A stretch of DNA of 64,000 nt, taken from a bacterium (lineage in GTDB: Bacteria > Patescibacteriota > Patescibacteriia > Patescibacteriales > GWE2-39-37). Below are positions 5,297-42,367 of the stretch, piece by piece. Location of the stretch: NCBI GenBank assembly GCA_037146995.1, contig JBAWWA010000003.1, positions 24,663 to 88,662 of the forward strand, read 5' to 3'. Position numbers and translations under genes: made by a program. Positions within the stretch are counted from its first letter, which is position 1. Every line of letters begins with the position of its first letter. Under the pieces are notes generated by a model. The model was not told the DNA's origin. It saw only the letters and a list, made by a program, of their open reading frames with translations, and ran no database searches.

Positions 5297-5392
5297 CACC
5301 GTCCAAACGTCAAGAATGAATTTATTTTCTTCTATATATTTTGTTGGTTTTTTAAAACTAACATAGCAAAGCCAAGCTATTAAAAAAATTAA

Positions 5393-6888
<1,496 letters not shown>

Positions 6889-7010
6889 AGGGAGTCACGA
6901 TAACTGTTCTTCGGAACTTTTATCTAGGCCGATCTTCACTACCCTCTCGAGAGTAGTGAAGCAACACAAAAAATCTTAGGAGTCGCAAGACACTAAGTCG
7001 TTTGGTAAGT

Positions 7011-7026
7011 ATTGATGCCTGTTAGC
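7011..7026 (+). other. 3' arm of the 16S precursor processing stem
   Basis: Perfect 16-nt complement of 5281-5296. Followed by a perfect 9-bp hairpin AATAACTCC-GAA-GGAGTTATT (7032-7052). Confidence 0.7.
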
Positions 7027-7083
7027 CTCAAAATAACTCCGAAGGAGTTATTCCGCGTAGCCCTTTGTCCCGCGTAGCCTTGT

Positions 7084-7144
7084 GCGAAGTGGGATAGGCG
7101 AAGGGGAATGAGTCAATTGGTTGTGACAAACTGCCCCACTTCGC
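7084..7144 (+). repeat. REP-like GC-rich hairpin built from GCGAAG/CTTCGC units
   Basis: GCGAAGTGGG (7084-7093) pairs with CCCACTTCGC (7135-7144). The flanks carry CCGCGTAGCC x2 (7053-7062, 7070-7079), GCTTCGCGGGGTGC and TGCTTCGCAA. Confidence 0.55.
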
Positions 7145-7313
7145 TATTCAGCTTCGCGGGGTGCTTCGCAAATAGTTTATGGGCATTATTTGAAGAGGTT
7201 TGACATTTTAAGACTGCCCTTATATTATTATATAGTCAGTCTTTTTTTGTTGAAAAAAGAAAAATACGATTAAAGCTTTGTCAGGCATGCCCTGCTAATT
7301 TTTAATGTAGTAC

Positions 7314-7390
7314 GGGCGTGTAGCTCAGTTGGTTAGAGCGCAACACTGATAATGTTGAGGTCCCAGGTTCGAATCCTGGCACGCCCACCA
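7314..7390 (+). tRNA. tRNA-Ile (GAT), CCA encoded
   Basis: Hand-folded cloverleaf: acceptor GGGCGTG/CACGCCC, anticodon stem CAACA/TGTTG, loop CTGATAA, T arm CCAGG-TTCGAAT-CCTGG, then A-CCA. Confidence 0.92.
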
Positions 7391-7510
7391 CTTCGCCAAG
7401 GCTTCGCGGGTGCATGCACCACTTAGGCAAAAGCGTTGATGAAAAAAATAAAAGCCGTTAAATTCCCAGGAGTTTACGGCGCGTAGCTCAGCTTCAGCTG
7501 AGTGAAGTGA

Positions 7511-7583
7511 CGCGGGGTAGAGCAGTTGGCAGCTCGTCGGGCCCATAACCCGAAGGCCGTTGGTTCAAATCCAACCCCCGCAA
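7511..7583 (+). tRNA. initiator tRNA-fMet (CAT)
   Basis: Acceptor CGCGGGG/CCCCGCA gives the C1:A72 mismatch. The anticodon stem TCGGG/CCCGA has three consecutive G:C pairs next to loop CCCATAA. Both are bacterial initiator hallmarks. Confidence 0.88.
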
Positions 7584-7687
7584 CTAGCAAGCAATTAATC
7601 GTTAACTTTTAACAGTTAACCTCTGAAAACGTTTAGATTTTTACAATTCAAAGCTAGGAGTAAAAGTTAACTGTTAATCGTTTCTTA

Positions 7688-7759
7688 GCCGAGGTAGCTC
7701 AGTGGTAGAGCAAAAGACTGAAAATCTTTGTGTCGGGAGTTCAATCCTCCCCCTCGGCA
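7688..7759 (+). tRNA. tRNA-Phe (GAA)
   Basis: Acceptor GCCGAGG/CCTCGGC, anticodon stem AAAGA/TCTTT, loop CTGAAAA, T arm GGGAG-TTCAATC-CTCCC. Confidence 0.9.
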
Positions 7760-7781
7760 CAGGCAAAATATCATTTTTTAA

Positions 7782-8207
7782 ATGTCAAAATTTTTTAATC
7801 TACTTTTCATGGCTTGTTTAGCTGCTGCCCTTTACTGGGGTTATGGCTATTACAATCTCAAAAAAGGTACGAACATCACTTTTGGCGATTATATAAATAA
7901 AAGTTTTGCTGTCGAGAAAGATGCGATTAGTCAAACAGTCTACAAAAAATTTGGCGTAGTTACCGATCTTATCTCAAATGAAGATTTGGTAAAAAAAACG
8001 GCCATTGACGAACTATCTGAGGTTATTGCTATTTATGCCGAGGAAAATGGCAAGTTGCCTACAAAAGCCGAGTTAACAACTATTTACAAGGACAACAAAA
8101 ACCTTTTAACGGATTCAAGCTTTATCTACGCCACCAGCACTGACGGTAAACAGTTTGATGTTTCAATTAAATTGAAAAACGGTACAATTTTCAAAAAAAG
8201 TCTATAA
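7782..8207 (+). CDS. hypothetical membrane-anchored protein
   Basis: 141 aa with a single N-terminal hydrophobic helix (LLFMACLAAALYWGYGYY) and a soluble C-terminal domain. No SD. TATCAT lies 7 nt upstream of the ATG. Confidence 0.55.
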   Translation: MSKFFNLLFMACLAAALYWGYGYYNLKKGTNITFGDYINKSFAVEKDAISQTVYKKFGVVTDLISNEDLVKKTAIDELSEVIAIYAEENGKLPTKAELTTIYKDNKNLLTDSSFIYATSTDGKQFDVSIKLKNGTIFKKSL

Positions 8208-8210
8208 ATA

Positions 8211-8281
8211 CGGGGTGTCGTATACTGGTAGTACGCGTGGTTTGGGACCATGTAGACAGGGTTCGATTCCCTGCACCCCGA
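8211..8281 (+). tRNA. tRNA-Pro (TGG)
   Basis: Acceptor CGGGGTG/CACCCCG, anticodon stem CGTGG/CCATG, loop TTTGGGA, T arm CAGGG-TTCGATT-CCCTG. Confidence 0.88.
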
Positions 8282-8379
8282 CAAAAAGATTTATCGCCTA
8301 AGCGATAGCGTGGCGTTAAATATTTTTTCGTGATGTAGGGCGGCAGAGAACCCTGAGCACGGCGTGGGGCTTTCGCCCC

Positions 8380-8400
8380 TTCGATTCCCTGCACCCCGAC
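8380..8400 (+). repeat. perfect 21-nt direct repeat of the tRNA-Pro 3' end
   Basis: TTCGATTCCCTGCACCCCGAC at 8380-8400 is identical to 8262-8282 (T loop, T stem 3' strand, acceptor 3' strand and two flanking nt). No cloverleaf can be folded around the second copy. Confidence 0.85.
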
Positions 8401-8508
8401 TCTCTTTCGCTCAAGCTTCAGAGAGCAAGCCAAAACTTGCCTCACAGCTCAACGAATTATGTATCGCCAATTTGGCGGGCTTGCCCGCCGAAGCTCGCAA
8501 GAGCGTAG

Positions 8509-8583
8509 GCGGGTATCGTATAATGGCTTTTACGTTAGCCTTCCAAGCTAAACATGGGGGTTCGATTCCCCCTACCCGCTCCA
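8509..8583 (+). tRNA. tRNA-Gly (TCC), CCA encoded
   Basis: Acceptor GCGGGTA/TACCCGC, anticodon stem TTAGC/GCTAA, loop CTTCCAA, T arm GGGGG-TTCGATT-CCCCC, then T-CCA. Confidence 0.9.
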
Positions 8584-11285: not shown

Positions 11286-12272
11286 TTATTTTTTCAACAA
11301 TTGCAAAATCAACTGAATCATGCGATTTTTGTTTTTGGGTTCACTTTCCGCTATAAATAGTGTCAGTGCCGTCAGGGCCGGCGGAGTGATTTTCGCATTA
11401 TCGAGCAAGCCGGCCTTTTTGAGATACCAGACAAAAGCAAAAGCTCCGCTACGCTTGTTGCCATCAATAAAGGGTGTTTTTTTGACCAAATAATAAAATA
11501 AATTAGCCGCCTTTTCTTCAACTGTCGGATAGAGTGACCGGCCGGCAAACGATTGCATGACACTGGCTACAATTTCTGCTACCGCATCACTGTCTTTTTC
11601 AAGTCCAAACTGCTCATCTGCCTCTCCTTGCTTAATCAGCTCCGACCTCAAAACACCTAACGCTTTTTGAAGTTGCATCGTAGTTAGCTCAACTGTTTTC
11701 CTTGTTTCGCCAGCCACTTTCAAACTATCCTTGTCGTAAGCGTCAAGAGATAGCCAAGTGTCAGCAAATGCAGCGAGCAATTCTAGTACGCCGTTCGTAT
11801 CAAGTACCGCATTACTCGGCATCAAGTGCTTGATGTTGTGCACCACCTCCATGAAGTGTTCGTAATTTTTCTCTATCATGACCGGATTAACGGTAAAACC
11901 CTTGGTGATATGCTGTTTCAAAGTCTTGGTAGCCCATTGACGAAAACTAGTCGCCTGCTTTGAATTTACCCGATAGCCAATAGAGATAACCAAGTCTAGA
12001 TTATAATACTCGAGCGTTCTTTTGATACTCCTCTTGCCCTCCAATTGAACTGTTTCCATTTTGGAAACAGTTGCCTTTTCTGATAATTCCCCAGAATCAA
12101 AAATATTTTTGACGTGCTTAGAAATGGCCGCTTTTTGTACATTAAAAATCTCGGCTACTTGTTGCTGGGTCATGAGCAGAGTTTCATGCTCCCCATCAAG
12201 CCGCACCTCAATAGCCCCGCTTTTACCCTGAAATATCGCCACTTGTTTTGTGTTTTTTGCTTGATTTTTCAT
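11286..12272 (-). CDS. RhuM-N-like / Doc(Fic)-like fusion protein with a degenerate Fic motif
   Basis: The N-terminus (QQQVAEIFNVQKAAISKHVKNIF...YYNLDLVISIGYRVNSKQATSFRQWATKTLKQHITKGF) is RhuM-like. The C-terminus (LYPTVEEKAANLFYYLVKKTPFIDGNKRSGAFAF) matches the Doc motif HxFx(D/N)(A/G)NKR, but with Thr in place of the His. Confidence 0.7.
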   Translation of the reverse strand: MKNQAKNTKQVAIFQGKSGAIEVRLDGEHETLLMTQQQVAEIFNVQKAAISKHVKNIFDSGELSEKATVSKMETVQLEGKRSIKRTLEYYNLDLVISIGYRVNSKQATSFRQWATKTLKQHITKGFTVNPVMIEKNYEHFMEVVHNIKHLMPSNAVLDTNGVLELLAAFADTWLSLDAYDKDSLKVAGETRKTVELTTMQLQKALGVLRSELIKQGEADEQFGLEKDSDAVAEIVASVMQSFAGRSLYPTVEEKAANLFYYLVKKTPFIDGNKRSGAFAFVWYLKKAGLLDNAKITPPALTALTLFIAESEPKNKNRMIQLILQLLKK

Positions 12273-12351: not shown

Positions 12352-12735
12352 CTACCCCCCAATACTCTGAATCGTAAATTTGACGAGGGCGTAGGAGGAG
12401 AAGATGATGGCAAGACCGATGGTCGACCATAGCAAGATACTTTTGCCCTTGTCTACGGCTTTGGCATTGCCTGCCGAGGTTAGCCAAAGAAACCCGCCAT
12501 AAACAAACATGAGCAAGGTCAGTGAGCCAACAATTCCCAGTGCACCCTGAATAATGTCACCAATGAGTGCTTGCGGGGTTGAGGCTTTTATGGGGTTTAC
12601 TAGCCTAACAGTACCTATTGGTGCTGACTTGTTGCCTTGACCAACGTCAACTCTAGATGAAGGATCAGCCGCCATAACAATTGCACTGTTTAACAGCTGA
12701 AAAATTAAAAATCCATACAATATAATCCTATTCAT
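12352..12735 (-). CDS. TrbC/VirB2-like 'T4SS pilin' family small membrane protein (paralogue 1)
   Basis: From the ATG at 12735: signal-like MNRIILYGFLIFQLLNSAIVMA, then GSLTLLMFVYGGFLWLTSAGNAKAVDKGKSILLWSTIGLAIIFSSYALVKF, i.e. two TM helices around an AGN-K loop. Shares IFSSYALVKF with 20626..21030. Confidence 0.65.
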   Translation of the reverse strand: MNRIILYGFLIFQLLNSAIVMAADPSSRVDVGQGNKSAPIGTVRLVNPIKASTPQALIGDIIQGALGIVGSLTLLMFVYGGFLWLTSAGNAKAVDKGKSILLWSTIGLAIIFSSYALVKFTIQSIGG

Positions 12736-12794
12736 ATGGTTTATTTTACATCTTTTATAAAAAAATGGGAAGTTATTATACTTCCCATTGGTGA

Positions 12795-13835
12795 TTATTT
12801 TACAACCATTGTTATTCCACAATTTTCCACGCCAATCATTCTGAATTTACTACTCTTGTAATCACTGGCGTTTACCCTGTCAATATCAGATTGAACCCAA
12901 AGTCTTGACTCCGTACCATCATCATATACGACTTTAAATTTTTTATTATCTGCCAAATAACGAACTTCACTTAATTCATTTACTGTTATCCAGTATGGTG
13001 TTTGCTCGCCAGCCTTTACTGATTCTTCATATTCACCTTTAGAAAAACTAACTGTCTCTGGCAAATTATCCTTCATATTAACCCACTCTTGCCCCATCAG
13101 GGCAACGAGGGCCGAACGAATGGCCGAAGTACGTGCCTCTTCACCAGGTTTTTTGGCTAGCTCCTTGCCTATCACTAACAACTCTTGCGCCTTTTTACTG
13201 CGCGTAGTGTCATCGAGATGACGACCAGCCTTGGTCAAGGCACCGACTTGCTGTTCGATCGGTAGGTTTTGATTACTACCTAAGTAGTAATTTGCAATTT
13301 TTGCTGCCATCTTTGGGTGAGCGTCAGCCGCAAAATCAAACCAGTACTCTTCACCGGCCGTGCCGTGCTCTTTGACACCGAGATTATACAAATCATCGGC
13401 CAAAGGCCAGGCGCTTTTGGGAAAAAATTGTTGAAAGTAGGCGAAGTTTTCGCTACGCTCGCGCTTGCCCATTGTGCCGGGATTGCGACTATCGTTCAAT
13501 GTCTTAATCAAGACCTTGCGCGCTAGTGGCTCATACTGAGACAACAACTGAACCACCCTTTTAGGGTCATTGCGTCTCGCCTCACGCATCTGCTCTGTCG
13601 CCCCATTAAAGTTATTGGACTTGAGAAACACCCTCACACAATCAACATAAATTTCGGCCCGACGGGCCAGACTGCTGGTCTGATGCACCGCAAGCTCGTA
13701 ATTGGTAAATGCAGAGCCATAAGTGCCGTTGGCCTCAAACTGCTTGCCAAGCGCATGATAATCCATGCCACCGGCCAAAGCCGAAATAGCAAAAAATACT
13801 ACCAACATCGGGGCCAAAAATAATGCTTTTTTCAT
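12795..13835 (-). CDS. hypothetical secreted protein
   Basis: 346 aa with an N-terminal signal peptide (MKKALFLAPMLVVFFAISALAGG). Visibly higher GC than its neighbours. Lies directly upstream of pilin paralogue 1 on the same strand. Confidence 0.55.
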   Translation of the reverse strand: MKKALFLAPMLVVFFAISALAGGMDYHALGKQFEANGTYGSAFTNYELAVHQTSSLARRAEIYVDCVRVFLKSNNFNGATEQMREARRNDPKRVVQLLSQYEPLARKVLIKTLNDSRNPGTMGKRERSENFAYFQQFFPKSAWPLADDLYNLGVKEHGTAGEEYWFDFAADAHPKMAAKIANYYLGSNQNLPIEQQVGALTKAGRHLDDTTRSKKAQELLVIGKELAKKPGEEARTSAIRSALVALMGQEWVNMKDNLPETVSFSKGEYEESVKAGEQTPYWITVNELSEVRYLADNKKFKVVYDDGTESRLWVQSDIDRVNASDYKSSKFRMIGVENCGITMVVK

Positions 13836-18359: not shown

Positions 18360-18388
18360 TTGACTAATTTGGTAAAATATGCTATAGT
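18360..18388 (+). promoter_or_regulatory. sigma70-type promoter of the 18514-21030 gene cluster
   Basis: TTGACT (18360-18365), 17-nt spacer, TATAGT (18383-18388). It predicts a leader of about 120 nt. Confidence 0.5.
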
Positions 18389-18513
18389 GCTATATTAAGA
18401 TTAGTAATTTCATACCCTCCGCGCATTTTAGGCGGTTTTTTATAAACCACCCCGAAACGGCTAATTAGCCCTTTGACAACTCAAAAAACCTACCCTAAAG
18501 GAGGGAATGAACC

Positions 18514-19767
18514 ATGGGAAATCCCAAACAACAGAACCCACAAACACCACCAGTCCCAAGAAGAACACTCCACGTTTTTGCAGGCACACCACACAAAATT
18601 GCGGTCAATCAGTATCGAACACACATCACTGGCAAGGTCTGTTTCGACGGTGTCGATGATAGCACTGCATCAATCTGGGTCAAAGAAAATGGTCTCGATA
18701 TTCACTCGGTCACTGGCAGGCTCAATTACGACTATGTCAAAGACGCGACTGACGTCGAACAAAACATCCAACTCATTATTGAGTCGGGAGTTAACAGCGA
18801 GGCAATTAACGTTGTCATTCCTATAAAAGATGCCACTGCAGTCGCCCCTAGACCCAACGAACCGGAGACACTTTTAATGTCTACGAGCTGCGGCATAGTT
18901 TTTGCTAGCGTCCTAACTCATACGGGCCTGGGACTGCCAAACATTCGCGTGCAGTTCCGGATAAACGGACATGCCGAATACGCCGACACTGACGGTGAAG
19001 GTAATTGCCAACTTGACTGTACAAGGTTTATTATAAACCAGCGAGTCAAAGTTTATGGACGCGTCTCTCAAATCGTTCATGAAGCCTGCGTAACACTTGA
19101 CGCATCGGGCAATGCACCAACCCCGCTAACTGGCAGCTTTTGGGAAAAATTCAAAAATCGAATTCACCCAAGAGCCAACAACTTTCGGGCTAACTGGGGC
19201 ATGTTGGCCACTATCCTTTGGCTATTTGTCTGCTTGTCTGTCGGTTACGGTAAACCAGTAATTCAGGAATACCTACCTACATTTCAGGCAAATGAAGTTG
19301 ACCTCAGTCAAGAAGCTAGAGCTGCTAGAAAAAAAGCAGTCTCACTAGGACTAGAAGCCGAGTCTCAACCCATCAAGTACGAACAGACTGAAAAGTACAA
19401 CCCGGTCGCCGAAAAAATCAGAGGTGGCATGTGGTTACTTCTTGGCCTGATGCTCGCATTTTTCCCTATCTACTGGTTGCTGTCCTGGCGCGAAGAAATC
19501 GCAGAAGTAGGTCGAGAAACGCTACACGCAATGCTCGACAATCATCGCGATCGCGCTGACGATCCGTTTTTTGAAAAGTTCGGCAAATGGTTCGGTTCTG
19601 TCAGTACAGCCAAAAAAACCAGTCATAGTAGCACGTCTAGTTCAGCCACACCTACCACTACCGAGAGCACCCAAGGATCTGCCTTTATGGATTTCCTAAA
19701 AATGGACTTGATAGTAGAGCTGTTAACCTCAATGTTACCAAAGTTATTCAAAAAACTATTCAATTAA
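18514..19767 (+). CDS. hypothetical membrane protein with an N-terminal beta-sandwich-like domain
   Basis: 417 aa with an AAAGGAGGG SD 8 nt upstream. GLGLPNIRVQFRINGHAEYADTDGEGNCQL resembles carboxypeptidase-regulatory-like folds. Two TM helices (MLATILWLFVCLSVGYG, MWLLLGLMLAFFPIYWLL), a Ser/Thr-rich tract and an amphipathic tail. Confidence 0.55.
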   Translation: MGNPKQQNPQTPPVPRRTLHVFAGTPHKIAVNQYRTHITGKVCFDGVDDSTASIWVKENGLDIHSVTGRLNYDYVKDATDVEQNIQLIIESGVNSEAINVVIPIKDATAVAPRPNEPETLLMSTSCGIVFASVLTHTGLGLPNIRVQFRINGHAEYADTDGEGNCQLDCTRFIINQRVKVYGRVSQIVHEACVTLDASGNAPTPLTGSFWEKFKNRIHPRANNFRANWGMLATILWLFVCLSVGYGKPVIQEYLPTFQANEVDLSQEARAARKKAVSLGLEAESQPIKYEQTEKYNPVAEKIRGGMWLLLGLMLAFFPIYWLLSWREEIAEVGRETLHAMLDNHRDRADDPFFEKFGKWFGSVSTAKKTSHSSTSSSATPTTTESTQGSAFMDFLKMDLIVELLTSMLPKLFKKLFN

Positions 19768-19779
19768 AAGGAGCTAGAA

Positions 19780-20547
19780 ATGAAATATTTACCAATAATA
19801 CCAGCTGCATTTATCATTAGCACCCTTTTAACCATTATCGTTAGTAATCCGCTTTGGCAAATGTTCTGGCTATTATTAATAGCTGCGGCACTCATGGTTT
19901 ATGTTAAAACACCGGAGTGGATCAAAGAAAACATCGCAAGGACAATGCTATACGTAACTGTTATTGCAATCACTAATCTTGCTTTTGGTCACATCATCGG
20001 AGGCTGGTTCAAACATAATTTTCCCACCACCTATCAGATGTTGCCATCAGCCAAACAAGGAACTGACTTAAGTATTAGCCGCATAATCAAAAGTCCAAAT
20101 GCGGCCCCAATATCAATCCTTGATTTGCAAAAAATGGACCTGGCCAATGAACTGGCCAAAAAAATCGATGGCAAATCAGTAGCTGAACAAAAAGAATTAG
20201 TAGACAACTACGTCAAAGCTATTGAGGAGCTAGACAGACTAGAGGCTCGACTCGAACAAAAGAAGGCGAAGGTTATTAAATCACCATCCCTGCCCAATTT
20301 CAGAAAAGTGCAGACCACGGCATATTATACCGGCAAGATTAAACTGCCACCCAATGGTGCTAGCCCATGGTACCACTGTGAACTCGGCACTAAAGCTTAT
20401 TGGACGGATGACGGTGATTTTATTGTTCGCTATAAGGACGGCATCGAGACTGCACCAAGCACGATTAGAAACAGCGCATTGCCATTTCAATTCATTAACC
20501 GAGGCGACTCTCCCCTCGAAATAAAAACGAGAGTAGTTTCTATATAA
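19780..20547 (+). CDS. hypothetical membrane protein (3 TM, coiled coil, C-terminal beta-rich domain)
   Basis: 255 aa with an AAAGGAG SD, 12 nt after the upstream stop. No family recognised. Confidence 0.55.
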   Translation: MKYLPIIPAAFIISTLLTIIVSNPLWQMFWLLLIAAALMVYVKTPEWIKENIARTMLYVTVIAITNLAFGHIIGGWFKHNFPTTYQMLPSAKQGTDLSISRIIKSPNAAPISILDLQKMDLANELAKKIDGKSVAEQKELVDNYVKAIEELDRLEARLEQKKAKVIKSPSLPNFRKVQTTAYYTGKIKLPPNGASPWYHCELGTKAYWTDDGDFIVRYKDGIETAPSTIRNSALPFQFINRGDSPLEIKTRVVSI

Positions 20548-20567
20548 AAAAAATTGACCTTTAATAC

Positions 20568-20597
20568 GAGGAAGTCATCAAGACTTCCTCTTTTTTT
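20568..20597 (+). terminator. intrinsic terminator or attenuator
   Basis: GAGGAAGTC-ATCAA-GACTTCCTC is a perfect 9-bp stem followed by T7. Confidence 0.7.
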
Positions 20598-20625
20598 ATT
20601 TTTAAGCTTAGCGTATAATGAAAAT

Positions 20626-21030
20626 ATGAAAAAAATTCTAATTATTTTATTTTTTGCAATCCTAATTATCCAGACCAACAATGTTGCCTTAGCAGGCGAA
20701 GGTGGCGCCAACCCTGGCGGTGGTGTAACCAATAGTAACACCTCTCAAAACGTAAAGAGTAGTTTTTCAGCAAAAGATTTTAACCCACTAAAAACTATTG
20801 ACTCCTTACCTGCCTACGCCAATAAGCTTATAACCTCGCTATTGGGCGTTATCGGTTCTATCGCCTTGATAATGTTCACCTATAGCGGTTTTCGCTGGAT
20901 GACGGCGGCTGGCAACTCCAAGGCGGTCGAAGAAAGTCGCGCTACCATGCTGTGGGCAGCTCTAGGACTAGTCTTGATATTCTCTTCTTACGCCCTGGTA
21001 AAATTTGTTATCGGCGCAGCTGGCGGTTAA
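20626..21030 (+). CDS. TrbC/VirB2-like 'T4SS pilin' family small membrane protein (paralogue 2)
   Basis: From the ATG at 20626: signal MKKILIILFFAILIIQTNNVALA, a Gly-rich spacer, then GSIALIMFTYSGFRWMTAAGNSKAVEESRATMLWAALGLVLIFSSYALVKF. TATAAT (20614-20619) lies 6 nt upstream of the ATG and there is no SD. Confidence 0.65.
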   Translation: MKKILIILFFAILIIQTNNVALAGEGGANPGGGVTNSNTSQNVKSSFSAKDFNPLKTIDSLPAYANKLITSLLGVIGSIALIMFTYSGFRWMTAAGNSKAVEESRATMLWAALGLVLIFSSYALVKFVIGAAGG

Positions 21031-21047
21031 TTTACATTTGTCACTAT

Positions 21048-21075
21048 AAGCCCTACGGAAGTAGGGCTTTTTTAT
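21048..21075 (+). terminator. intrinsic terminator
   Basis: AAGCCCTAC-GGAA-GTAGGGCTT is a 9-bp stem with a GGAA tetraloop and a T-run. Confidence 0.75.
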
Positions 21076-25230: not shown

Positions 25231-26091
25231 TTAAGCGATCAATAGTGCTGCACCAATTGCGCCAGCCAGCTTTCCCAGCTTGGCTTTCACAACCTTTATC
25301 TCCTTGTCTCCCTGATTTTCAACTAACCCTTTGATAGTCTTTTTTATCTCAGACATAAACAACTCGCTAGCATCTGTCGCACCACCGCCAATTACTAATA
25401 CCTCTGGATCAAATAAATTTATAATATTTGCAATACCAACTCCAAGTATGCGACCAAGCTCTTCAAAAACTTCACGGGCTAAAACATCACCCGAATATGC
25501 CTCTTCAGCAAGCAAGGCTGGGTTATTCTGAGTTAATTTGTGGTAAGCACCTTCTAAATTCATGCGACTATTAAAATCAATTATCATTGCCCCCGGTTCA
25601 TTGGCAGCTCCATGACTACCTTGATAAGTCTTGCCATCAACTATCCAGCCACCACCGATGCCCGTACCGATAATCAGGCCGTAAACATTATTAAAATTTT
25701 TACCAGCACCAATGACTGCCTCACCTAAAGCGAAGCAATTTGCATCATTATCGATTTTTATCTCTATTTCGGCACCGATTTTTTCCGCCAACGTGCTAAC
25801 GCTTAGATTTTTTAAAAATGGCAGATTAGGAATATAAACTATCTTACCATCGCTAATTGCTCCAGGCACACCAATTCCTATCCCTTTAATTCGCACTTTA
25901 TCTTTCTGTGCCTGCTCCTTCAAGGGCTCAATCAAGGCATTGAGCATGACCAAAAATTTTTCCAAATCATCCTTGGGTGTCGCTAATTTTGATTCGCCAA
26001 TGACCCGCTCACCATTAAGCAAGACCGCGCCCATCTTGGTTCCGCCAATATCAACACCTATCCTGTACTCTATTTTACTAATTTTTAACAT
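25231..26091 (-). CDS. ROK family sugar kinase (glucokinase-like)
   Basis: 286 aa. GVDIGGTKMGAVLL (phosphate 1), GIGVPGAI, NDANCFALGEA and GLIIGTGIGGG are ROK/ASKHA signatures. Confidence 0.85.
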   Translation of the reverse strand: MLKISKIEYRIGVDIGGTKMGAVLLNGERVIGESKLATPKDDLEKFLVMLNALIEPLKEQAQKDKVRIKGIGIGVPGAISDGKIVYIPNLPFLKNLSVSTLAEKIGAEIEIKIDNDANCFALGEAVIGAGKNFNNVYGLIIGTGIGGGWIVDGKTYQGSHGAANEPGAMIIDFNSRMNLEGAYHKLTQNNPALLAEEAYSGDVLAREVFEELGRILGVGIANIINLFDPEVLVIGGGATDASELFMSEIKKTIKGLVENQGDKEIKVVKAKLGKLAGAIGAALLIA

Positions 26092-27085
26092 ATATTTCTT
26101 TAGCCATCTCCCAAAAAATTGGCCGGTTTTGTTTAGTTTTTTCCCAATACCACCACTCTACCCCCCAAAGATAGAACTCGTCAAATCCTGTCGTCTGAAT
26201 AAAGCTTAACATATTTTTAAATTTTTCCGGACTCATCGATTTATCACGGTCGCTTTGGCCGACCAATTGATAGGAATCTTTGCACCACGGCTCCGCTTGT
26301 AGCTCGATAACAACCCACTTTTTAGGACTGGCAAAAAACTTGGCCAAATTTTTCTTGACCTTAAAAAAAGTTGGTGAAATCGGATAATGAATATACCGAT
26401 TCAAAGCTTGTGAATATGTATCACGGTAAATACTGGTGCCAAAAATATCGGCGCGATTAGCTGCTTTGTACCACAGCGACAATTCCCCAGAATCAGTTAC
26501 GACCACCGGACGTTTATCAATGACGCGAATCAAGCTTATTTCATTATCCAAAAAATCTTGATCAAAAGTTGGACACTCACCGAAATTTGGTAAAAATGGC
26601 TCATTTTCAACTTGCCAGGCGACGATATTTTTTTTGTCTTTATATCTCTCAATAGTGGCTTTGATATAATTCAAGGTCAAATCTTGCCTTTCTTTGGTCG
26701 GTAGTGGCTTGACCCATTCAGGAAAATGACATTCTGGCCAACGAGGCAAACGACCACCGACGGCCATAATAATCCGAGCATCGCGCTTGCCCGCCTCGTC
26801 AACCAACCAATCAATATTAGTCCAATCATATACACCCTCCTCGCCTTCAATCTCGCTCCAATAGGCTGGCAATCTAATATCTCTGACTTTAAGATCGTCA
26901 AGCATGGCTAAATATACTTGTTGCCAGTCCAGTTCTAAGTCTCTTGCCTGCTTGATTGAAAACGTGACACCGTATTTTATCTGATCAGGCCTGGGTGTGA
27001 GCCCAATCGTCAAAGCTACACCCGCAAGCAATAACAAAGAAATGACAAATACCCAATTTCTTATTTTTCTTATTTTGCTTAGCAT
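26078..27085 (-). CDS. membrane-anchored clan GH-A (TIM-barrel) glycoside hydrolase-like protein
   Basis: 335 aa with an N-terminal TM anchor. IVAWQVENEPF (NEP acid/base-type motif) and the WSEIEGEEGVYDW pattern resemble GH5/GH42-type enzymes. The family was not resolved. Confidence 0.5.
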   Translation of the reverse strand: MLSKIRKIRNWVFVISLLLLAGVALTIGLTPRPDQIKYGVTFSIKQARDLELDWQQVYLAMLDDLKVRDIRLPAYWSEIEGEEGVYDWTNIDWLVDEAGKRDARIIMAVGGRLPRWPECHFPEWVKPLPTKERQDLTLNYIKATIERYKDKKNIVAWQVENEPFLPNFGECPTFDQDFLDNEISLIRVIDKRPVVVTDSGELSLWYKAANRADIFGTSIYRDTYSQALNRYIHYPISPTFFKVKKNLAKFFASPKKWVVIELQAEPWCKDSYQLVGQSDRDKSMSPEKFKNMLSFIQTTGFDEFYLWGVEWWYWEKTKQNRPIFWEMAKEIYVKN

Positions 27086-27089
27086 TTAA

Positions 27090-27527
27090 TTAATTACCGC
27101 ACATGCTACCAAAAAACGTACCTCCGGAATTACCAGTAACATTTATAACACAACCCATGACAAAATCAGCCAGCATCATTGCTGACAAGATAATTATCAA
27201 GCCAATAACTCCATTTTGTAAATACGACTTGGCTGTCTCAATTTTTTTACTATCACCACCAACCGTTAGCCACTGAAAACCGGCATACATAATTAGACCA
27301 ACAAAAATAATACCTAAAAAACCAAGCAACCGATTCAAGATCTTGGCCACCGTAACGCGGATGTCAGTCGGTTCTCCAGTCGTGTCAAAGCCATTTTTAC
27401 CAACCTCGCCCAAACCACCCTTCATTACGGTATCTTTTATGCCAGCATTAACAGCATAAAAAACCGAAAAGTTCACTAAAATCAACATGGAAAAAATCGA
27501 CAATTGCTTGGCTAATGTGGTCATCAT
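27090..27527 (-). CDS. TrbC/VirB2-like 'T4SS pilin' family small membrane protein (paralogue 3, divergent)
   Basis: 145 aa. Signal-like N-terminus, then LLGFLGIIFVGLIMYAGFQWLTVGGDSKKIETAKSYLQNGVIGLIIILSAMMLADF. The two-helix architecture matches the other two paralogues. Cys/Gly-rich tail. Confidence 0.55.
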   Translation of the reverse strand: MMTTLAKQLSIFSMLILVNFSVFYAVNAGIKDTVMKGGLGEVGKNGFDTTGEPTDIRVTVAKILNRLLGFLGIIFVGLIMYAGFQWLTVGGDSKKIETAKSYLQNGVIGLIIILSAMMLADFVMGCVINVTGNSGGTFFGSMCGN

Positions 27528-36306: not shown

Positions 36307-36380
36307 GGAGCGGTAGTTCAGTTGGTTAGAATGCTGCCCTGTCACGGCAGAGGTCGCGAGTTCGAGTCTCGTCCGCTCCG
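36307..36380 (+). tRNA. tRNA-Asp (GTC)
   Basis: Acceptor GGAGCGG/CCGCTCC, anticodon stem CTGCC/GGCAG, loop CTGTCAC, T arm GCGAG-TTCGAGT-CTCGT. Confidence 0.92.
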
Positions 36381-38000
36381 CACTAAGCAACAAGAAGGTC
36401 CGAAAGGGTCTTCTTTTTGCGTATGTTGCACTAAATCTTCGGTTCTAGTGGCCACATTTTCACGATTCCAAGAAATTATGAAATTATGTGGCAGAACGGT
36501 TGAATTTGCGAGCGTTTTGTCGGTTAAAATCGGGTTATAGTAAACGAATAAAAAGATCTCACGCTTCTCTTCGGGAGAGGCGTTTTTGAATTTCTCTTTG
36601 AGCCGACAGGTGAAGTTCACATAGTCCACCGCCAGATCAAACCAATTCTGACTCGACTGATCAACATCACCCATCTTCTCTTGGATTTTTTCTTTTTCCA
36701 AAACAATCTCTTTCTTCTGTGCCATAAACTCCTCATCACCCATCAGCGAGCCGTCCGTATTATCAGGCGAGATTTTAAGCCTGACCAGATTATCCATTTT
36801 AGCCTGACACCTGATCAAGGCCGTCTGTTGGCGTTTAAGAATATTATCCCGATTGCCAATCTCTTGCTCATTAGCCTTATTAATTTCCTCCAAGGCCAAT
36901 TTTAAAAAGTCCTCATCAACCGTCATGGAATCAATCGTCTGAGCAATCTGTGATTCCAACTCCAGCTCAGAAATATAATGCAGACCAGTACATTTAATAC
37001 AACGATAATAAATAATACCCTTAGCCACCATACCAGAGATATTGCCTCCGCAAGCTCCGCACTTCATAAAATTCGTATAAGTGTAATATCGCTTTTTGAC
37101 CACAGGGCGAGTCCGTCTATGTAATTCTTCCTGCACTCGGTTATAAAGCTCACGACTAATAATCGGCTCATGCCGACCGTCTGGCAACTCCTCAGGCTCA
37201 ATGACTCTGCCTTTCCACAAAATCGCCCCATAATAAAACGGATTCATCATAATGCGGTAAATCGTTACCATGCTGAGTTTCTTTTTACTTCGCTCTCCCA
37301 ATAATCCCCAACCTGCAGTCATCTCCCGCAAATAGTTTAATGTATATTGACCAGTCGCATAGCACTCAAATAATTCTTTGATCAGTGGAGCCATAATCGG
37401 ATCTTTTTCAATCCGTCTTAATGGTCTGTTTAGTTTGGCCAGTACTTCCTGCTTTTCAAACGTGTACTGCTTACCAGAAATCTTGCCCTCCCGATCCATA
37501 TTTAAATAACCCAAAGCGGCAAAGCCTGGGTACTCGCCCTTAAGAATTTTGGCCTGCAAATCACGCCTCACAAATTCCGAAGTATCATCCGAGCTTTTCT
37601 TGGACATGGCGAACTGCAAAGCCAAAAAGAATTCTTGACCTGAGTTTTTAGAATAACTTTCCGAGGGCGTCCTGACTTCCTGTAATACTCCGTCCTTAAG
37701 CATATCTATAACAATACCGCCATCGGTCATATTACGAGCCAAACGGGAGATGTGATAAACCAATATGCCATCGGCTTTGCCCTCTTCGATTAGACTGATC
37801 ATCTTCTCAAACTGAGCCCGACCTCGTTTATAAGCCGATTGCGACTCCTCAAAATCTCCTACAATTTTTATACCCTCTTTGCGAGCAAACTCGGCCAGCT
37901 CCCGCTTCTGCGAATCCAAACTCAAAATCTGTCGATCCTCGGAGTCGGACGACTTTCGCCTATAACTGAAATATCTAGTTTTTTGATTTGGTTTCTCCAT
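36342..38000 (-). CDS. large serine recombinase (integrase)
   Basis: 552 aa. Resolvase-type N-terminus (RYFSYRRKSSDSEDRQILSLDSQ, catalytic Ser region; LVYHISRLARN), a recombinase domain, a Zn ribbon (CGACGG...YYRCIKC) and a coiled-coil region. The last ~24 codons are antisense to the terminator and the tRNA-Asp 3' end. Confidence 0.85.
   Translation of the reverse strand: MEKPNQKTRYFSYRRKSSDSEDRQILSLDSQKRELAEFARKEGIKIVGDFEESQSAYKRGRAQFEKMISLIEEGKADGILVYHISRLARNMTDGGIVIDMLKDGVLQEVRTPSESYSKNSGQEFFLALQFAMSKKSSDDTSEFVRRDLQAKILKGEYPGFAALGYLNMDREGKISGKQYTFEKQEVLAKLNRPLRRIEKDPIMAPLIKELFECYATGQYTLNYLREMTAGWGLLGERSKKKLSMVTIYRIMMNPFYYGAILWKGRVIEPEELPDGRHEPIISRELYNRVQEELHRRTRPVVKKRYYTYTNFMKCGACGGNISGMVAKGIIYYRCIKCTGLHYISELELESQIAQTIDSMTVDEDFLKLALEEINKANEQEIGNRDNILKRQQTALIRCQAKMDNLVRLKISPDNTDGSLMGDEEFMAQKKEIVLEKEKIQEKMGDVDQSSQNWFDLAVDYVNFTCRLKEKFKNASPEEKREIFLFVYYNPILTDKTLANSTVLPHNFIISWNRENVATRTEDLVQHTQKEDPFGPSCCLVRSGRDSNSRPLP
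36392..36418 (+). terminator. hairpin terminator after tRNA-Asp
   Basis: AAGAAGGTCC-GAAA-GGGTCTTCTT is a 10-bp stem (two G:U pairs) with a GAAA tetraloop, followed by TTT. It lies inside the antisense tail of the recombinase ORF. Confidence 0.6.
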
Positions 38001-41245: not shown

Positions 41246-42367
41246 ATGCAAACACTTATAAAATGGCCTGGGGGCAAAACAAAAGAGTTTGAATATATCA
41301 AAGAGATTATTCCTAAATTTGATCGATATGTTGAGCCATTTTTTGGTGGAGGAGCAGTTTTTTTTCAGCTACAACCAAAAAAAGCTATCATCAATGATAT
41401 ATGTGAAGAATTGGTTGATCTCTATAAATTTGTAAAAGGTGAAGAAGATAGAGATTTGTTTAAAAAAGAATTATTAGATTACGTAGATAACTGGGAGAAA
41501 ATTCCAAAATACATAAAAGTCTTTGAAAAAAAATTATTCAACCTATACGCAAAATACCGAAATGACGAAGTAACAATACAAGAACTCCAAAAAACAATAA
41601 ATGACATATTGCGCAAGGAAGAAGATAAATTCAACGGACTATTTCATAAAAGTTTTTGCCTCGATGAACAAAATTTGTTAAAGCAAATTATTGCTAATTT
41701 AATTTCAAAGATTAAAAGAACAAAGGACATTGAGAAACAAAGAGGTGATCTGCCAGAGGGTGATTTAGAAAAAAATATTGAAACAGGATTTAGGAGTGGT
41801 TTTTATATGCACTTCAGGGATGTCATGAATTTTAATGGCACAAAATTTAAAACAACAAAAGCAAAAAAAATTGCTAACTATTATTTTATAAGAGAATTTT
41901 GTTATGCCTCGATGTTTCGATTTAATAGTAGTGGACACTTCAACATTCCCTATGGTGGCATAGGCTATAACAATAAAGATTTTAGAAAAAAGGTTGAGCA
42001 TGTGTTAAATCCAACTATTCAAGAATTGTTTAGAAACACAAAAATTGAAAATAAAGATTTTGAATTGATATTCAAAGAGAACGACCTAACCAAAAAAGAT
42101 TTTATTTTTTTGGATCCTCCGTATGATACTGATTTCAGCGACTACGAAAAGGCATCATTCGACAAAAAAGATCAAGAGAGGCTAGCAAATTGTTTATACA
42201 AAACCAAGGCTAATTTTATTCTTATAATTAAGAAAACTCCTTTCATTTACAATCTTTATAAAAATAAAGACGGAATTAAAATAGATAAGTTTGATAAAAC
42301 ATATCTGTACAATGTTAAGGGCAGAAATGATCGCGATGTTGAACACTTAGTAATTTATAACTTCTAA
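41246..42367 (+). CDS. Dam-like (D12 class, alpha) N6-adenine DNA methyltransferase
   Basis: 373 aa. LIKWPGGKTKE, FxGxG motif PFFGGGAVFF and motif IV FLDPPYDTDF. It carries extra sequence between the motifs compared with E. coli Dam. Confidence 0.8.
   Translation: MQTLIKWPGGKTKEFEYIKEIIPKFDRYVEPFFGGGAVFFQLQPKKAIINDICEELVDLYKFVKGEEDRDLFKKELLDYVDNWEKIPKYIKVFEKKLFNLYAKYRNDEVTIQELQKTINDILRKEEDKFNGLFHKSFCLDEQNLLKQIIANLISKIKRTKDIEKQRGDLPEGDLEKNIETGFRSGFYMHFRDVMNFNGTKFKTTKAKKIANYYFIREFCYASMFRFNSSGHFNIPYGGIGYNNKDFRKKVEHVLNPTIQELFRNTKIENKDFELIFKENDLTKKDFIFLDPPYDTDFSDYEKASFDKKDQERLANCLYKTKANFILIIKKTPFIYNLYKNKDGIKIDKFDKTYLYNVKGRNDRDVEHLVIYNF

What the first reader, a model, noticed from the sequence alone, without database searches (positions are those of the whole stretch)
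18360..21075. Operon of two unknown membrane proteins followed by a VirB2/TrbC-like pilin: a candidate novel surface-appendage module
A good promoter (TTGACT-17-TATAGT) and a leader of about 120 nt precede the first gene.
- 18514..19767 encodes a 417-aa protein with an N-terminal beta-sandwich-like region including a carboxypeptidase-regulatory-like segment. It also has two TM helices, a Ser/Thr-rich tract and an amphipathic C-terminal helix.
- 19780..20547 starts 12 nt later and encodes 255 aa with 3 TM helices, a coiled coil and a beta-rich C-terminal domain.
- After a 9-bp hairpin with T7 (an attenuator?), the pilin-like gene 20626..21030 follows, with its own TATAAT.

No VirB4, VirD4, PilB or secretin-type ATPase or channel gene lies anywhere in the 64 kb. 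How this pilin-like protein is assembled, and what the two partners do, is therefore unexplained. Neither partner matches any family I can name.
Basis: partly seen in the sequence, partly recalled or inferred. Interest (0 to 1): 0.55.

Follow-up and report, generated by a model that had tools for sequence, protein, structure and literature searches.

The report
Pilin gene with two conserved membrane partners
In an ultrasmall (Patescibacteria-type) bacterium, a VirB2-type pilin gene sits beside two undescribed membrane-protein genes, and this trio recurs in relatives, which suggests a lineage-specific pilin helper pair more than a new machine.

Summary
All three ORFs, the promoter, the 12-nt junction, the hairpin with T7 and the TATAAT are at the stated coordinates.

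- **Pilin:** the third gene passes Pfam's threshold for PF18895 (T4SS_pilin).
- **The two partners:** neither matches any Pfam, NCBIfam, PHROG, PADLOC or PDB entry. They are not orphans, though. An exhaustive HMMER search found 63 divergent relatives of gene 1.
- **Synteny:** in 15 of 15 related Patescibacteria loci a gene-2-type gene follows directly. A PF18895 pilin comes next in 13 of 14, although the flanking genes differ.
- **Transcription:** a terminator plus a -10 box separates gene 2 from the pilin in all 13 loci examined. Genes 1-2 therefore look like a two-gene operon, with the pilin as its own unit.
- **Gene 1:** the model shows two Ig-like domains, probably cytoplasmic, then a conserved transmembrane hairpin and a basic amphipathic tail.
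- **Gene 2:** it has three transmembrane helices, a helical stalk and an outward-facing beta domain. That domain recurs in a secreted protein next to a second pilin copy at 12.3-13.8 kb.

The missing ATPase is not a paradox, because patescibacterial pilin genes often lie far from virB4. My best reading is a pilin-dedicated membrane accessory pair that serves a T4SS encoded elsewhere. The mechanism is inferred, not shown.

The parts
18360..18388 (+). Sigma-70-type promoter of the g1-g2 operon (TTGACT-17-TATAGT with a TG extension)
   Evidence: The consensus scan gives 10 of 12 matches. Relatives carry TTGACA-17-TGnTATAAT at the same place.
18395..18513 (+). Leader of about 120 nt. It shares only CCCTTTGACAAC with the conserved leader motif of the relatives. 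AGGAGG lies 8 nt before the ATG.
   Evidence: No Rfam match and no consensus structure.
18514..19767 (+). g1, 417 aa. It has two Ig-like (Big_1-like) beta-sandwich domains at 17-102 and 119-195, then a TM hairpin (about 222-243 and 297-324) with a loop of about 55 aa. After that come conserved juxtamembrane helices, a Ser/Thr tract, and a basic amphipathic C-terminal helix at 397-416.
   Evidence: Family of 63 representatives, alignment A1. AlphaFold pLDDT 78. Foldseek gives only generic Ig-like hits.
19780..20547 (+). g2, 255 aa. It has three TM helices, a helical stalk at 113-163 and a small beta-rich C-terminal domain that probably lies outside the cell.
   Evidence: An HMM built from relatives only ranks it first among 224 window ORFs, E 7.7e-4. 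BLASTP against the L011 homologue gives 1e-6. The structure model is poor, pLDDT 46.
20568..20597 (+). Intrinsic terminator (9-pair stem, 5-nt loop, T7) that ends the g1-g2 operon
   Evidence: A hairpin plus T-run sits at the same place in all 13 loci examined, with different stem sequences.
20614..20619 (+). TATAAT box of the pilin gene. It lies 6 nt before the ATG and there is no Shine-Dalgarno sequence, so the mRNA may be leaderless.
   Evidence: TATAAT-like boxes follow the terminator in the relatives too. Leaderless translation is an inference.
20626..21030 (+). g3, a VirB2-like pilin of 134 aa. It has a Sec signal peptide (MKKILIILFFAILIIQTNNVALA|G), a variable Gly/Asn/Ser-rich N-terminal part, and two hydrophobic helices (68-86 and 111-129) joined by the charged loop RWMTAAGNSKAVEESR.
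   Evidence: PF18895 scores 36.4 bits against a cut-off of 26.6. Hydropathy, alignment A4.
21048..21073 (+). Terminator after the pilin gene
12795..13835 (-). Related partner of a second pilin copy, 346 aa. It has a signal peptide, a helical (TPR-like) middle, and a C-terminal beta domain of the same family as the C-terminal domain of g2 relatives.
   Evidence: A beta-domain HMM built without any window sequence hits its last 85 residues or so at E 6.5e-5. The g2-relatives HMM gives E 1.3e-3. hhalign gives E 0.004.
12759..12789 (-). Terminator hairpin plus T7 between the 346-aa gene and pilin copy 2. The layout matches that between g2 and g3.
12352..12735 (-). Pilin copy 2, 127 aa counted from the ATG at 12735. 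It is 40% identical to g3.
   Evidence: PF18895 scores 34.2 bits. Alignment A4, coordinates.
27090..27527 (-). Pilin copy 3. It lies 4 nt upstream of a membrane-anchored glycoside-hydrolase-like gene (26078..27085) and has no g1/g2-type neighbour.
   Evidence: PF18895 scores 33.9 bits..

Best explanation
The locus is a conserved three-gene pilin module found in one lineage of Patescibacteria, the Falkowbacteria/ABY1-type relatives. It consists of a two-gene operon and a separately transcribed pilin gene.

**The parts**
- **g1** puts two Ig-like domains and a basic amphipathic tail on the cytoplasmic side. Its transmembrane hairpin and juxtamembrane helices are the conserved core.
- **g2** puts a helical stalk and a small beta domain on the outside. 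Together with g1 it would form a cytoplasmic-membrane complex.
- **g3** is a Sec-exported VirB2-like pilin. It has its own promoter and is probably expressed at a higher level.

**Proposed mechanism (inferred)**
- g1-g2 is a pilin-dedicated accessory pair. It would receive, stabilise or position this pilin copy in the membrane and couple it to the patescibacterial T4SS (VirB4, VirB3, VirB6), which is encoded elsewhere in the genome and supplies the energy.
- The outward beta domain of g2 would be the pilin- or pilus-binding part.
- The cytoplasmic Ig-like domains of g1 would be the docking part.

**Shown here:** the gene structures, the pilin family, the existence of both partner families, their conserved linkage, and the conserved terminator.

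**Inferred:** the topology, complex formation, the link to a T4SS and the direction of action.
For: - **Pilin identity:** PF18895 scores above its gathering cut-off.
- **g1 family:** 63 representatives, mostly full length. g2 relatives share architecture and motifs.
- **Linkage:** a g2-type gene follows g1 directly in 15 of 15 loci, and a PF18895 pilin is the next gene in 13 of 14.
- **Flanks differ between loci:**
  - the window has a histidine kinase and GNAT on one side and LysRS on the other;
  - most loci have Fpg, an AI-2E transporter and rubrerythrin;
  - L021 sits next to NusA, the H+-PPase and trigger factor;
  - L012 has a serine recombinase.
- **Relative conservation:** the pilin is the best conserved of the three. 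Within g1, the TM hairpin and juxtamembrane helices are best conserved.
- **Recurring beta domain:** the g2-type beta domain recurs on a secreted helical protein directly upstream of pilin copy 2 in the window. It recurs again after g2 in L011.
- **Not phage or defence:** no g1 relative in viral contigs, and no PADLOC or PHROG hit.
- **Literature:**
  - patescibacterial T4SSs with VirB2-like pilins are widespread;
  - the pilin genes are often not near virB4 (PMC12102498);
  - the T4SS and its pilin array are essential in Southlakia (PMC12857230).
Against: - There is no direct evidence of any interaction between the three proteins.
- A conserved terminator separates g2 from the pilin, so they are not co-transcribed. 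In L020 and L021 the pilin genes are on the opposite strand.
- Only one of the three pilin copies in the window has a g1 neighbour.
- The family is narrow, so shared ancestry inflates the synteny count. The loci fall into roughly ten lineages, not 15 independent ones.
- Whether this genome has a T4SS at all could not be tested.
- Ig-like Big_1-type domains are usually extracellular, which sits uneasily with the cytoplasmic placement inferred for g1.
- The g2 model is too poor to support any fold statement.
Confidence: 0.4

Rival explanations
1. The three proteins form a self-contained envelope complex that has nothing to do with a T4SS pilus. In this reading the PF18895 protein is only a small two-helix membrane subunit. 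The trio would serve some other envelope function, such as host contact, cell-surface anchoring or membrane organisation.
For: - No T4SS gene lies within 64 kb of the window or within 6-8 kb of any related locus.
- The pilin profile finds no solved VirB2 structure by sequence.
- PF04956 (TrbC/VirB2) and the NCBIfam pilin model both score below their cut-offs.
- No patescibacterial VirB2-like protein has yet been shown to form a pilus. The review speaks only of a 'potential to elaborate conjugative pili'.
Against: PF18895 is passed with all the sequence features of VirB2-type pilins: a signal peptide, two hydrophobic helices and a charged loop. In Patescibacteria these genes are statistically associated with virB4.
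Confidence: 0.2
2. The adjacency is inherited gene order without a functional tie. g1-g2 is an unrelated membrane operon that happens to lie upstream of a pilin gene in one clade.
For: - Terminator and promoter signals separate the two transcription units in every locus.
- Many loci share the wider Fpg, AI-2E transporter and rubrerythrin neighbourhood, so they are not independent.
- Pilin genes are frequent in these genomes, with three in this 64 kb.
Against: - The trio stays together where the flanks have changed, as in the window, L012, L015 and L021.
- It has held together over a divergence that leaves g1 and g2 only 21-24% identical.
- The g2-type beta domain is found next to a second, separately located pilin gene.
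Confidence: 0.15
3. g1-g2 is itself a new assembly or anchoring machine for VirB2-like pilins. It would work without a T4SS ATPase, or with a different energy source.
For: - The pair spans from the cytoplasm (g1 domains) to the outside (g2 domain), as assembly platforms do.
- The linkage to the pilin is conserved.
- There is no ATPase nearby in any locus.
Against: - Neither protein has a nucleotide-binding motif of a credible kind. The only Walker-like string in g2 lies in the predicted extracellular helix.
- All known VirB2-type pili need VirB4 (established knowledge).
- VirB4 is present in most patescibacterial genomes. The study found 2,474 virB4 genes in 3,035 genomes.
Confidence: 0.1
4. 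The region is a remnant of a mobile element (an ICE or prophage) that carried a conjugative pilin.
For: g1 has a somewhat higher G+C content (0.46) than the window as a whole (0.39). A serine recombinase lies after the pilin in L012, and another lies 15 kb away in the window.
Against: - The immediate flanks are housekeeping genes in all loci.
- Other genes in the window also reach 0.43-0.44 G+C.
- There are no viral contigs with g1 and no relaxase, integrase or T4SS genes adjacent.
- The module is vertically conserved.
Confidence: 0.05

Closest known systems
VirB2-like pilins of the patescibacterial T4SS (Pfam PF18895; Quinonero-Coronel et al. 2025, PMC12102498; Wang et al. 2023 as cited in PMC12857230)
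   Same: g3 passes the PF18895 threshold. It has a signal peptide, two hydrophobic helices and a charged loop. It occurs as several divergent copies per genome and lies on the chromosome away from any relaxase.
   Different: It is not in a pilin array and not near virB4. It is tied instead to two conserved membrane-protein genes that the sources I read do not mention among T4SS components.
F-plasmid TraQ and TraX, and RP4 TraF (pilin-specific membrane chaperone and maturation factors; established knowledge)
   Same: They are small sets of inner-membrane proteins dedicated to one VirB2-type pilin. They act before the ATPase-driven assembly step and have no ATPase of their own.
   Different: There is no sequence similarity. 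Pfam, which holds these families, gave no hit at E up to 1. The architectures differ, and the resemblance is one of proposed role only.
PilN/PilO and GspL/GspM-type alignment proteins of type IV pili and type II secretion (established knowledge)
   Same: g2 has a membrane anchor, a coiled-coil stalk and a small outward-facing domain. It is encoded next to a partner with a cytoplasmic domain.
   Different: g2 has three TM helices instead of one. There is no profile match, the C-terminal domain appears all-beta, and the system it would serve is T4SS-type rather than T4P-type.
Bacterial Ig-like (Big_1) domains of intimin and invasin, and phage Big-1 proteins
   Same: The two N-terminal domains of g1 have this fold. 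Foldseek gives 6tpl (intimin D0-D1) at E 6e-5 and phage Big-1 proteins at E 4e-7. Several family members give sub-threshold Big_1, MG or CarboxypepD_reg hits.
   Different: The known examples are extracellular. Here the domains precede the first TM helix without a signal peptide and are probably cytoplasmic. The window protein itself has no Pfam hit.
C-terminal amphipathic membrane-targeting helices of MinD and FtsA (established knowledge)
   Same: The g1 family ends in a conserved basic amphipathic helix...DLLSD.LVE..P.(I/L)F(K/R)..F.
   Different: g1 is already membrane-anchored by two TM helices. The resemblance is one of sequence character only and was not tested.

Membership tests
PF18895 T4SS_pilin (VirB2-like pilins) | Score at or above Pfam's gathering cut-off | tested here: met
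   g3 scores 36.4 bits against 26.6. Pilin copies 2 and 3 score 34.2 and 33.9, and the relative in L006 scores 46.3.
PF18895 T4SS_pilin (VirB2-like pilins) | Cleavable N-terminal signal peptide followed by two hydrophobic helices joined by a short charged loop | tested here: met
   MKK, a hydrophobic core and ALA|G. The helices are at 68-86 and 111-129 and the loop is RWMTAAGNSKAVEESR. The cleavage site is read from the sequence, not predicted by a dedicated tool.
PF18895 T4SS_pilin (VirB2-like pilins) | Encoded in a genome with, or next to, a VirB4-type T4SS | tested here: not met
   No VirB4, VirD4 or VirB11 lies in the 64-kb window or within 6-8 kb in the 21 related loci fetched. Genome-wide presence could not be tested. 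The literature says such separation is common.
PF18895 T4SS_pilin (VirB2-like pilins) | Polymerises into an extracellular pilus | not testable with these tools
   This needs microscopy or biochemistry. It has not yet been shown for any patescibacterial VirB2-like protein according to PMC12857230.
PF04956 TrbC/VirB2 pilin | Score at or above Pfam's gathering cut-off | tested here: not met
   22.6 bits against 27.9. A PDB profile search with the pilin alignment found no solved VirB2 or TraA chain.
NCBIfam NF045849 Mbov_0395 pilin-like conjugal transfer protein | Score at or above the curated cut-off | tested here: not met
   37.2 bits against 40.
Big_1 / CarboxypepD_reg-type Ig-like domain (for g1 residues 17-195) | Profile match above threshold | tested here: not met
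   The window protein has no hit at E up to 1. Of 29 family members, 3 give sub-threshold Big_1 hits and 1 gives CarboxypepD_reg.
Big_1 / CarboxypepD_reg-type Ig-like domain (for g1 residues 17-195) | Beta-sandwich fold of that type | tested here: met
   The AlphaFold domains have pLDDT above 90. Foldseek probability is 1.0 against intimin D0-D1 and phage Big-1 proteins, though TM-scores are low because only part of the model aligns.
Known T4SS inner-membrane components (VirB3/PrgI, VirB6/PrgH, VirB8/PrgL, TraQ) | Profile similarity of g1 or g2 to any of these families | tested here: not met
   Pfam and NCBIfam gave no such hit for g1, g2 or their relatives. The CONJScan profiles used in PMC12102498 were not available here.
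New g1 family (proposed here) | Ig-like domains, the NNGR motif before TM1, G-x-G-x-P after it, Y..LS(L/W)REE after TM2, a DP motif, and a basic amphipathic C-terminus | tested here: met
   The window protein keeps N222, N223, R225, G244, G246, Y320, R326, E327, E328, D350, P351 and P409 of alignment A1. The family HMM gives E 3e-102, noting that the window sequence is part of that model. The single-sequence phmmer search links it to relatives at E down to 2e-22.
New g2 family (proposed here) | Three TM helices, the P.T...D motif after TM3, a helical stalk and a C-terminal beta domain, encoded directly after g1 | tested here: met
   Position and architecture are met. Sequence support is weak but present: the HMM built from relatives only gives E 7.7e-4 and the top rank among 224 window ORFs, and BLASTP against L011 gives 1e-6. 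The beta-domain HMM does not detect the window's own C-terminal domain.

The most novel reading that the evidence does not exclude
g1-g2 is a previously unknown kind of membrane platform. It would assemble, anchor or retract VirB2-type pilins in a single-membrane cell independently of the canonical VirB4 machine. The recurring beta domain would be a general pilin-binding module of Patescibacteria.
Probability: 0.12. Interest if true: 0.8.

Novelty: new variant of a known kind. Interest (0 to 1): 0.45.

Why it matters
**Background.** The T4SS and its VirB2-like pilins are essential for the epibiotic life of the one Patescibacterium tested genetically. They are the only case of VirB2-type pilins in single-membrane bacteria (PMC12857230, PMC11665869). 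How such pilins are handled without the outer-membrane core, VirB5 or a recognisable VirB8 is an open question.

**What this adds.**
- Two unannotated membrane-protein families that stay locked to a pilin gene across deep divergence give concrete candidates for the missing pilin-handling parts.
- A small outward-facing beta domain that turns up next to two different pilin copies is a candidate pilin-binding module.

**Limits.** The families are confined to one uncultivated lineage, and the functional link is inferred from gene order alone.

Tried and rejected
**Searches that missed or found nothing**
- Word-index protein searches with g1, g2 and the g1 profile found only the query itself, plus one relative for the profile. 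This wrongly suggested orphans. The exhaustive search corrected it for g1.
- The look-up of encoding contigs had no record for g1.
A 10-sequence alignment worked.
- Pfam, NCBIfam, PHROGs and PADLOC gave nothing for g1 or g2.
- PDB profile searches gave nothing significant for g1, g2 or the pilin.
- Foldseek on the g1 model gave only generic Ig-like matches and said nothing about the membrane part.
- The g2 AlphaFold model was too poor (pLDDT 46) to search with.

**Ideas rejected**
- *Phage origin:* there are no viral contigs with g1.
- *Riboswitch or structured leader upstream of g1:* Rfam gave only noise and RNAalifold found no consensus pairs.
  - The leader motif of the relatives is a sequence motif.
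  - The window shares only CCCTTTGACAAC with it.
- *uORF reading of that motif:* the frame is not kept between loci (by inspection).
- *Sigma-54 promoter reading of TGGCAA...TTG:* the spacing is 2 nt short (by inspection).

**Could not be done**
- Horizontal transfer was not settled from composition. g1 G+C is 0.46 against 0.40-0.44 for neighbouring genes.
- I tried to find the complete Falkowbacteria genome CP066698 in the T4SS paper's tables. The stored table is truncated.


Full report
**1. What is in the sequence**

- The consensus scan finds TTGACT-17-TATAGT at 18360-18388. It matches 10 of 12 positions and has a TG extension.
- It also finds a 9-pair hairpin with T7 at 20568-20597 and a second terminator at 21048-21073.
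- g2 starts 12 nt after the g1 stop, behind AAGGAG. TATAAT lies at 20614-20619, only 6 nt before the pilin ATG.
- The window is chromosomal. It holds a 16S rRNA gene, ten tRNA genes, LysRS, LeuRS, NusA, PNPase and trigger factor.

**2. No secretion ATPase or channel in the window**

- Pfam on almost every ORF of 260 aa or more found housekeeping, sugar-metabolism and regulatory proteins.
- The VirB4- and VirD4-sized ORFs at 47-54 kb are the H+-pyrophosphatase, NusA and PNPase.
- A Walker A scan found one credible P-loop, in a 188-aa kinase-like ORF.

**3. The pilin**

- g3 passes PF18895 (36.4 bits against 26.6). It falls short of PF04956 TrbC/VirB2 (22.6 against 27.9) and of the NCBIfam mycoplasma pilin-like model (37.2 against 40).
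- It has a Sec-type signal peptide, a variable Gly/Asn/Ser-rich N-terminal part, two hydrophobic helices and a charged connecting loop.
- A profile of it and its relatives finds no solved structure by sequence.
- The window holds two more PF18895 genes, at 12352..12735(-) and 27090..27527(-).

**4. The two partners are not orphans**

- Word-index searches returned only the proteins themselves.
- An exhaustive HMMER search of 1.84 billion cluster representatives then found 63 relatives of g1 at E up to 1e-3, and 17 at E up to 1e-10. They are 22-41% identical over the matched stretches, and most are 400-430 aa and aligned end to end.
- The alignment shows a fixed plan:
  - a short Pro/Gln/Asn-rich N-terminus;
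  - two beta domains with TD.NG motifs (four or more in some members);
  - a DPE linker;
  - an NNGR motif just before TM1, and G-x-G-x-P just after it;
  - a loop of about 45-60 residues;
  - TM2 followed by Y..LSLREEIAEG, then a DP..ER motif;
  - a low-complexity tract and a basic amphipathic C-terminal helix.
- No member reaches any Pfam threshold. A few give sub-threshold Big_1, macroglobulin or CarboxypepD_reg hits.

**5. Structure of g1**

- With this alignment AlphaFold gives mean pLDDT 78.
- The model shows two beta-sandwich domains (17-102 and 119-195, pLDDT above 90), two long TM helices, further helices at 326-360, a disordered 370-389 segment and a terminal helix at 397-416.
- Foldseek finds only generic tandem Ig-like domains, namely intimin D0-D1, Fc receptors, FN3 pairs and phage Big-1 proteins.

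**6. Topology of g1 (inferred)**

- No signal peptide precedes the 225-residue N-terminal part, and the start codon is well supported by the family alignment.
- Across 29 members, K+R counts are 2.8 before TM1 against 1.2 after it.
- Two long members carry Cys-rich N-terminal extensions that look like zinc ribbons (by inspection).
- The C-terminus resembles the basic amphipathic membrane-targeting helices of MinD and FtsA (established knowledge).
- I therefore place both ends in the cytoplasm and the loop outside. This is moderately supported, and it is odd for Ig-like domains.

**7. Conserved linkage**

- A scan of one genome per species returned ten loci. All come from Falkowbacteria or unclassified Patescibacteria MAGs. 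Four are titled 'uncultured Gammaproteobacteria', but three of them share the same gene order as the Falkowbacteria loci. The fourth (L005) is cut just after g1.
- A metagenome scan added eleven more loci, three of them duplicates.
- In all 15 distinct loci with DNA after g1, the next gene encodes a 236-291-aa protein with the g2 plan.
- In 13 of the 14 loci that reach a third gene, that gene is a PF18895 pilin.
  - In 11 it is on the same strand.
  - In two it is on the opposite strand, and one of those (L021) is a five-gene pilin array.
  - The exception, L011, has a secreted helical protein that carries a near-identical copy of its own g2 beta domain, and then the contig ends.
- The loci fall into roughly ten lineages, so the count is not 15 independent events.
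- The flanks differ, however:
  - the window has a histidine kinase and GNAT on one side and LysRS on the other;
  - most loci have Fpg, an AI-2E transporter and rubrerythrin;
  - L021 sits next to NusA, the H+-PPase and trigger factor, which in the window lie 25 kb from the module;
  - L012 has a serine recombinase.
- No locus has a T4SS gene within 6-8 kb.
- No viral contig encodes a g1 relative.

**8. g2**

- The window's g2 is only 18-23% identical to the others.
- Even so, an HMM built from relatives alone ranks it first among 224 window ORFs (E 7.7e-4). BLASTP against the L011 protein gives 1e-6.
- Shared features are three TM helices, a P.T...D motif just after TM3, a helical stalk, a Pro-rich linker and a beta-rich C-terminal domain.
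- The charged loop between TM2 and TM3 suggests the C-terminal 180 residues lie outside (inferred).
- The AlphaFold model is poor, with pLDDT 46.

**9. A second pilin-linked gene in the same window**

- The same g2 HMM ranks the 346-aa ORF at 12795..13835(-) second (E 1.3e-3).
- A beta-domain HMM built without any window sequence hits its last 85 residues or so at E 6.5e-5. hhalign aligns the same stretch.
- This protein has a signal peptide and a helical middle.
- It is followed by a hairpin with T7 (12759-12789) and then by pilin copy 2. That layout is the same as for g2, its terminator and g3.
- The beta domain therefore occurs in two architectures, one membrane-anchored and one secreted, each directly upstream of a pilin gene. 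This is the strongest hint that the domain has to do with the pilin.

**10. Transcription units**

- In all 13 loci examined, a G+C-rich hairpin with a T-run follows the g2-type gene. The stems have different sequences, and a TATAAT-like box follows each one.
- I read this as a true terminator. g1-g2 would be a two-gene operon, and the pilin a separate and probably more strongly expressed unit. This is inferred and no transcript data were available.

**11. Conservation pattern**

- Over the same 11 loci, mean pairwise identity is 0.57 for the pilin, 0.46 for g1 and 0.39 for g2.
- Within g1, the TM hairpin and juxtamembrane helices are best conserved (0.54-0.65). The first Ig-like domain and the outside loop are among the least conserved (0.36-0.39), as is the Ser/Thr tract (0.32).
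- The functional core of g1 is thus at the membrane.

**12. Comparison with what is known**

- Patescibacteria carry a chromosomal T4SS related to the conjugation machinery of single-membrane bacteria.
- VirB2-like pilins were found in 1,948 assemblies that also have VirB4, and near virB4 in only 1,135 of them. Arrays of divergent pilins are common (PMC12102498).
- In Southlakia the T4SS and its pilin array are essential (PMC12857230, PMC11665869).
- A pilin gene far from any ATPase is therefore ordinary in this group, and the machine is most likely elsewhere in this genome. I could not test that, because only 64 kb are at hand.
- Falkowbacteria are class ABY1 in that study. The three Falkowbacteria rows visible in the stored part of its Table S1 all read 'VirB4: Yes', but the table is truncated.
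- Neither paper, as far as I read them, mentions proteins like g1 or g2.

**13. Verdict**

- The pilin is a new member of a known family. The two partners are undescribed families confined to one lineage.
- The best-supported reading is a pilin-dedicated membrane accessory pair that serves a T4SS encoded elsewhere (confidence about 0.4).
- The rivals are an unrelated envelope complex, mere inherited gene order, a stand-alone assembly platform and a mobile-element remnant.
- The interest is moderate. It is a concrete and testable lead on how VirB2-type pilins are handled in single-membrane ultrasmall bacteria, but so far it rests on gene order and architecture alone.

Noticed in passing
window 12352..13835 (-): A second pilin-linked pair. 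A 346-aa secreted helical protein carries a C-terminal beta domain of the g2 type. It is followed by a terminator hairpin (12759-12789) and pilin copy 2 (12352..12735). The layout matches g2, its terminator and g3.
   Followed up: partly
window 26078..27527 (-): Pilin copy 3 (27090..27527) lies 4 nt upstream of a membrane-anchored glycoside-hydrolase-like gene with sub-family hits to GH42 and GH10. The latter could be a wall-cutting helper, in the way virB1 accompanies virB2. This is speculation.
   Followed up: no
L006 2967-6861 and L008 2946-6838: A four-gene insert about 0.8 kb upstream of the g1 homologue includes a 439-aa protein with Secretin (PF00263, E 3e-41) and STN domains. A secretin is unexpected in a presumed single-membrane Patescibacterium. 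The insert is absent at the same place in L007, L009 and L010.
   Followed up: partly
L001-L003, L005-L009, L012, L013, L015: the ~110 nt upstream of g1 homologues: Behind a strong TTGACA-17-TGnTATAAT promoter lies a conserved leader sequence motif, AATGAGA..GGCAA..ATTG..C.TTGAMAA..AAAT. nhmmer finds it only there, including in L005, which was not used to build the model. It has no Rfam match and no consensus structure. The window keeps only CCCTTTGACAAC.
   Followed up: partly
L011 1485-3424: The C-terminal beta domain of the g2 homologue and that of the next gene (signal peptide plus TPR-like helices) are nearly identical in sequence. This suggests recent duplication or gene conversion of the domain.
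   Followed up: partly
L021 7838-11154 (-): Five PF18895-like ORFs in a row, 118-295 aa, some with Cys-rich N-terminal extensions. They are convergent with the g1-g2 pair.
   Followed up: no
window 20614-20628: The TATAAT box ends 6 nt before the pilin ATG and there is no Shine-Dalgarno sequence, so the pilin mRNA may be leaderless. The relatives have AT-rich leaders of 25-30 nt instead.
   Followed up: no
window 36307-38000: A large serine recombinase gene (36342..38000, -) overlaps tRNA-Asp (36307..36381, +). A D12 adenine methyltransferase lies at 41246..42367. Together they may mark an integrated element.
   Followed up: no
window 11286-12272 (-): A protein with RhuM and Fic/DOC domains lies directly downstream of pilin copy 2.
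   Followed up: no
window 5389-8583: The 16S rRNA gene is followed by five tRNA genes and no 23S rRNA gene. The rRNA genes are therefore unlinked, as is often reported for ultrasmall bacteria.
   Followed up: no
L001, L002, L003, L005: The record titles call these MAGs 'uncultured Gammaproteobacteria'. L001-L003 share gene content and order (g1, g2, pilin, then Fpg, and in L001 and L002 also the AI-2E transporter and rubrerythrin) with the Falkowbacteria loci. L005 holds only a g1 homologue. The taxonomic labels are probably wrong.
   Followed up: no
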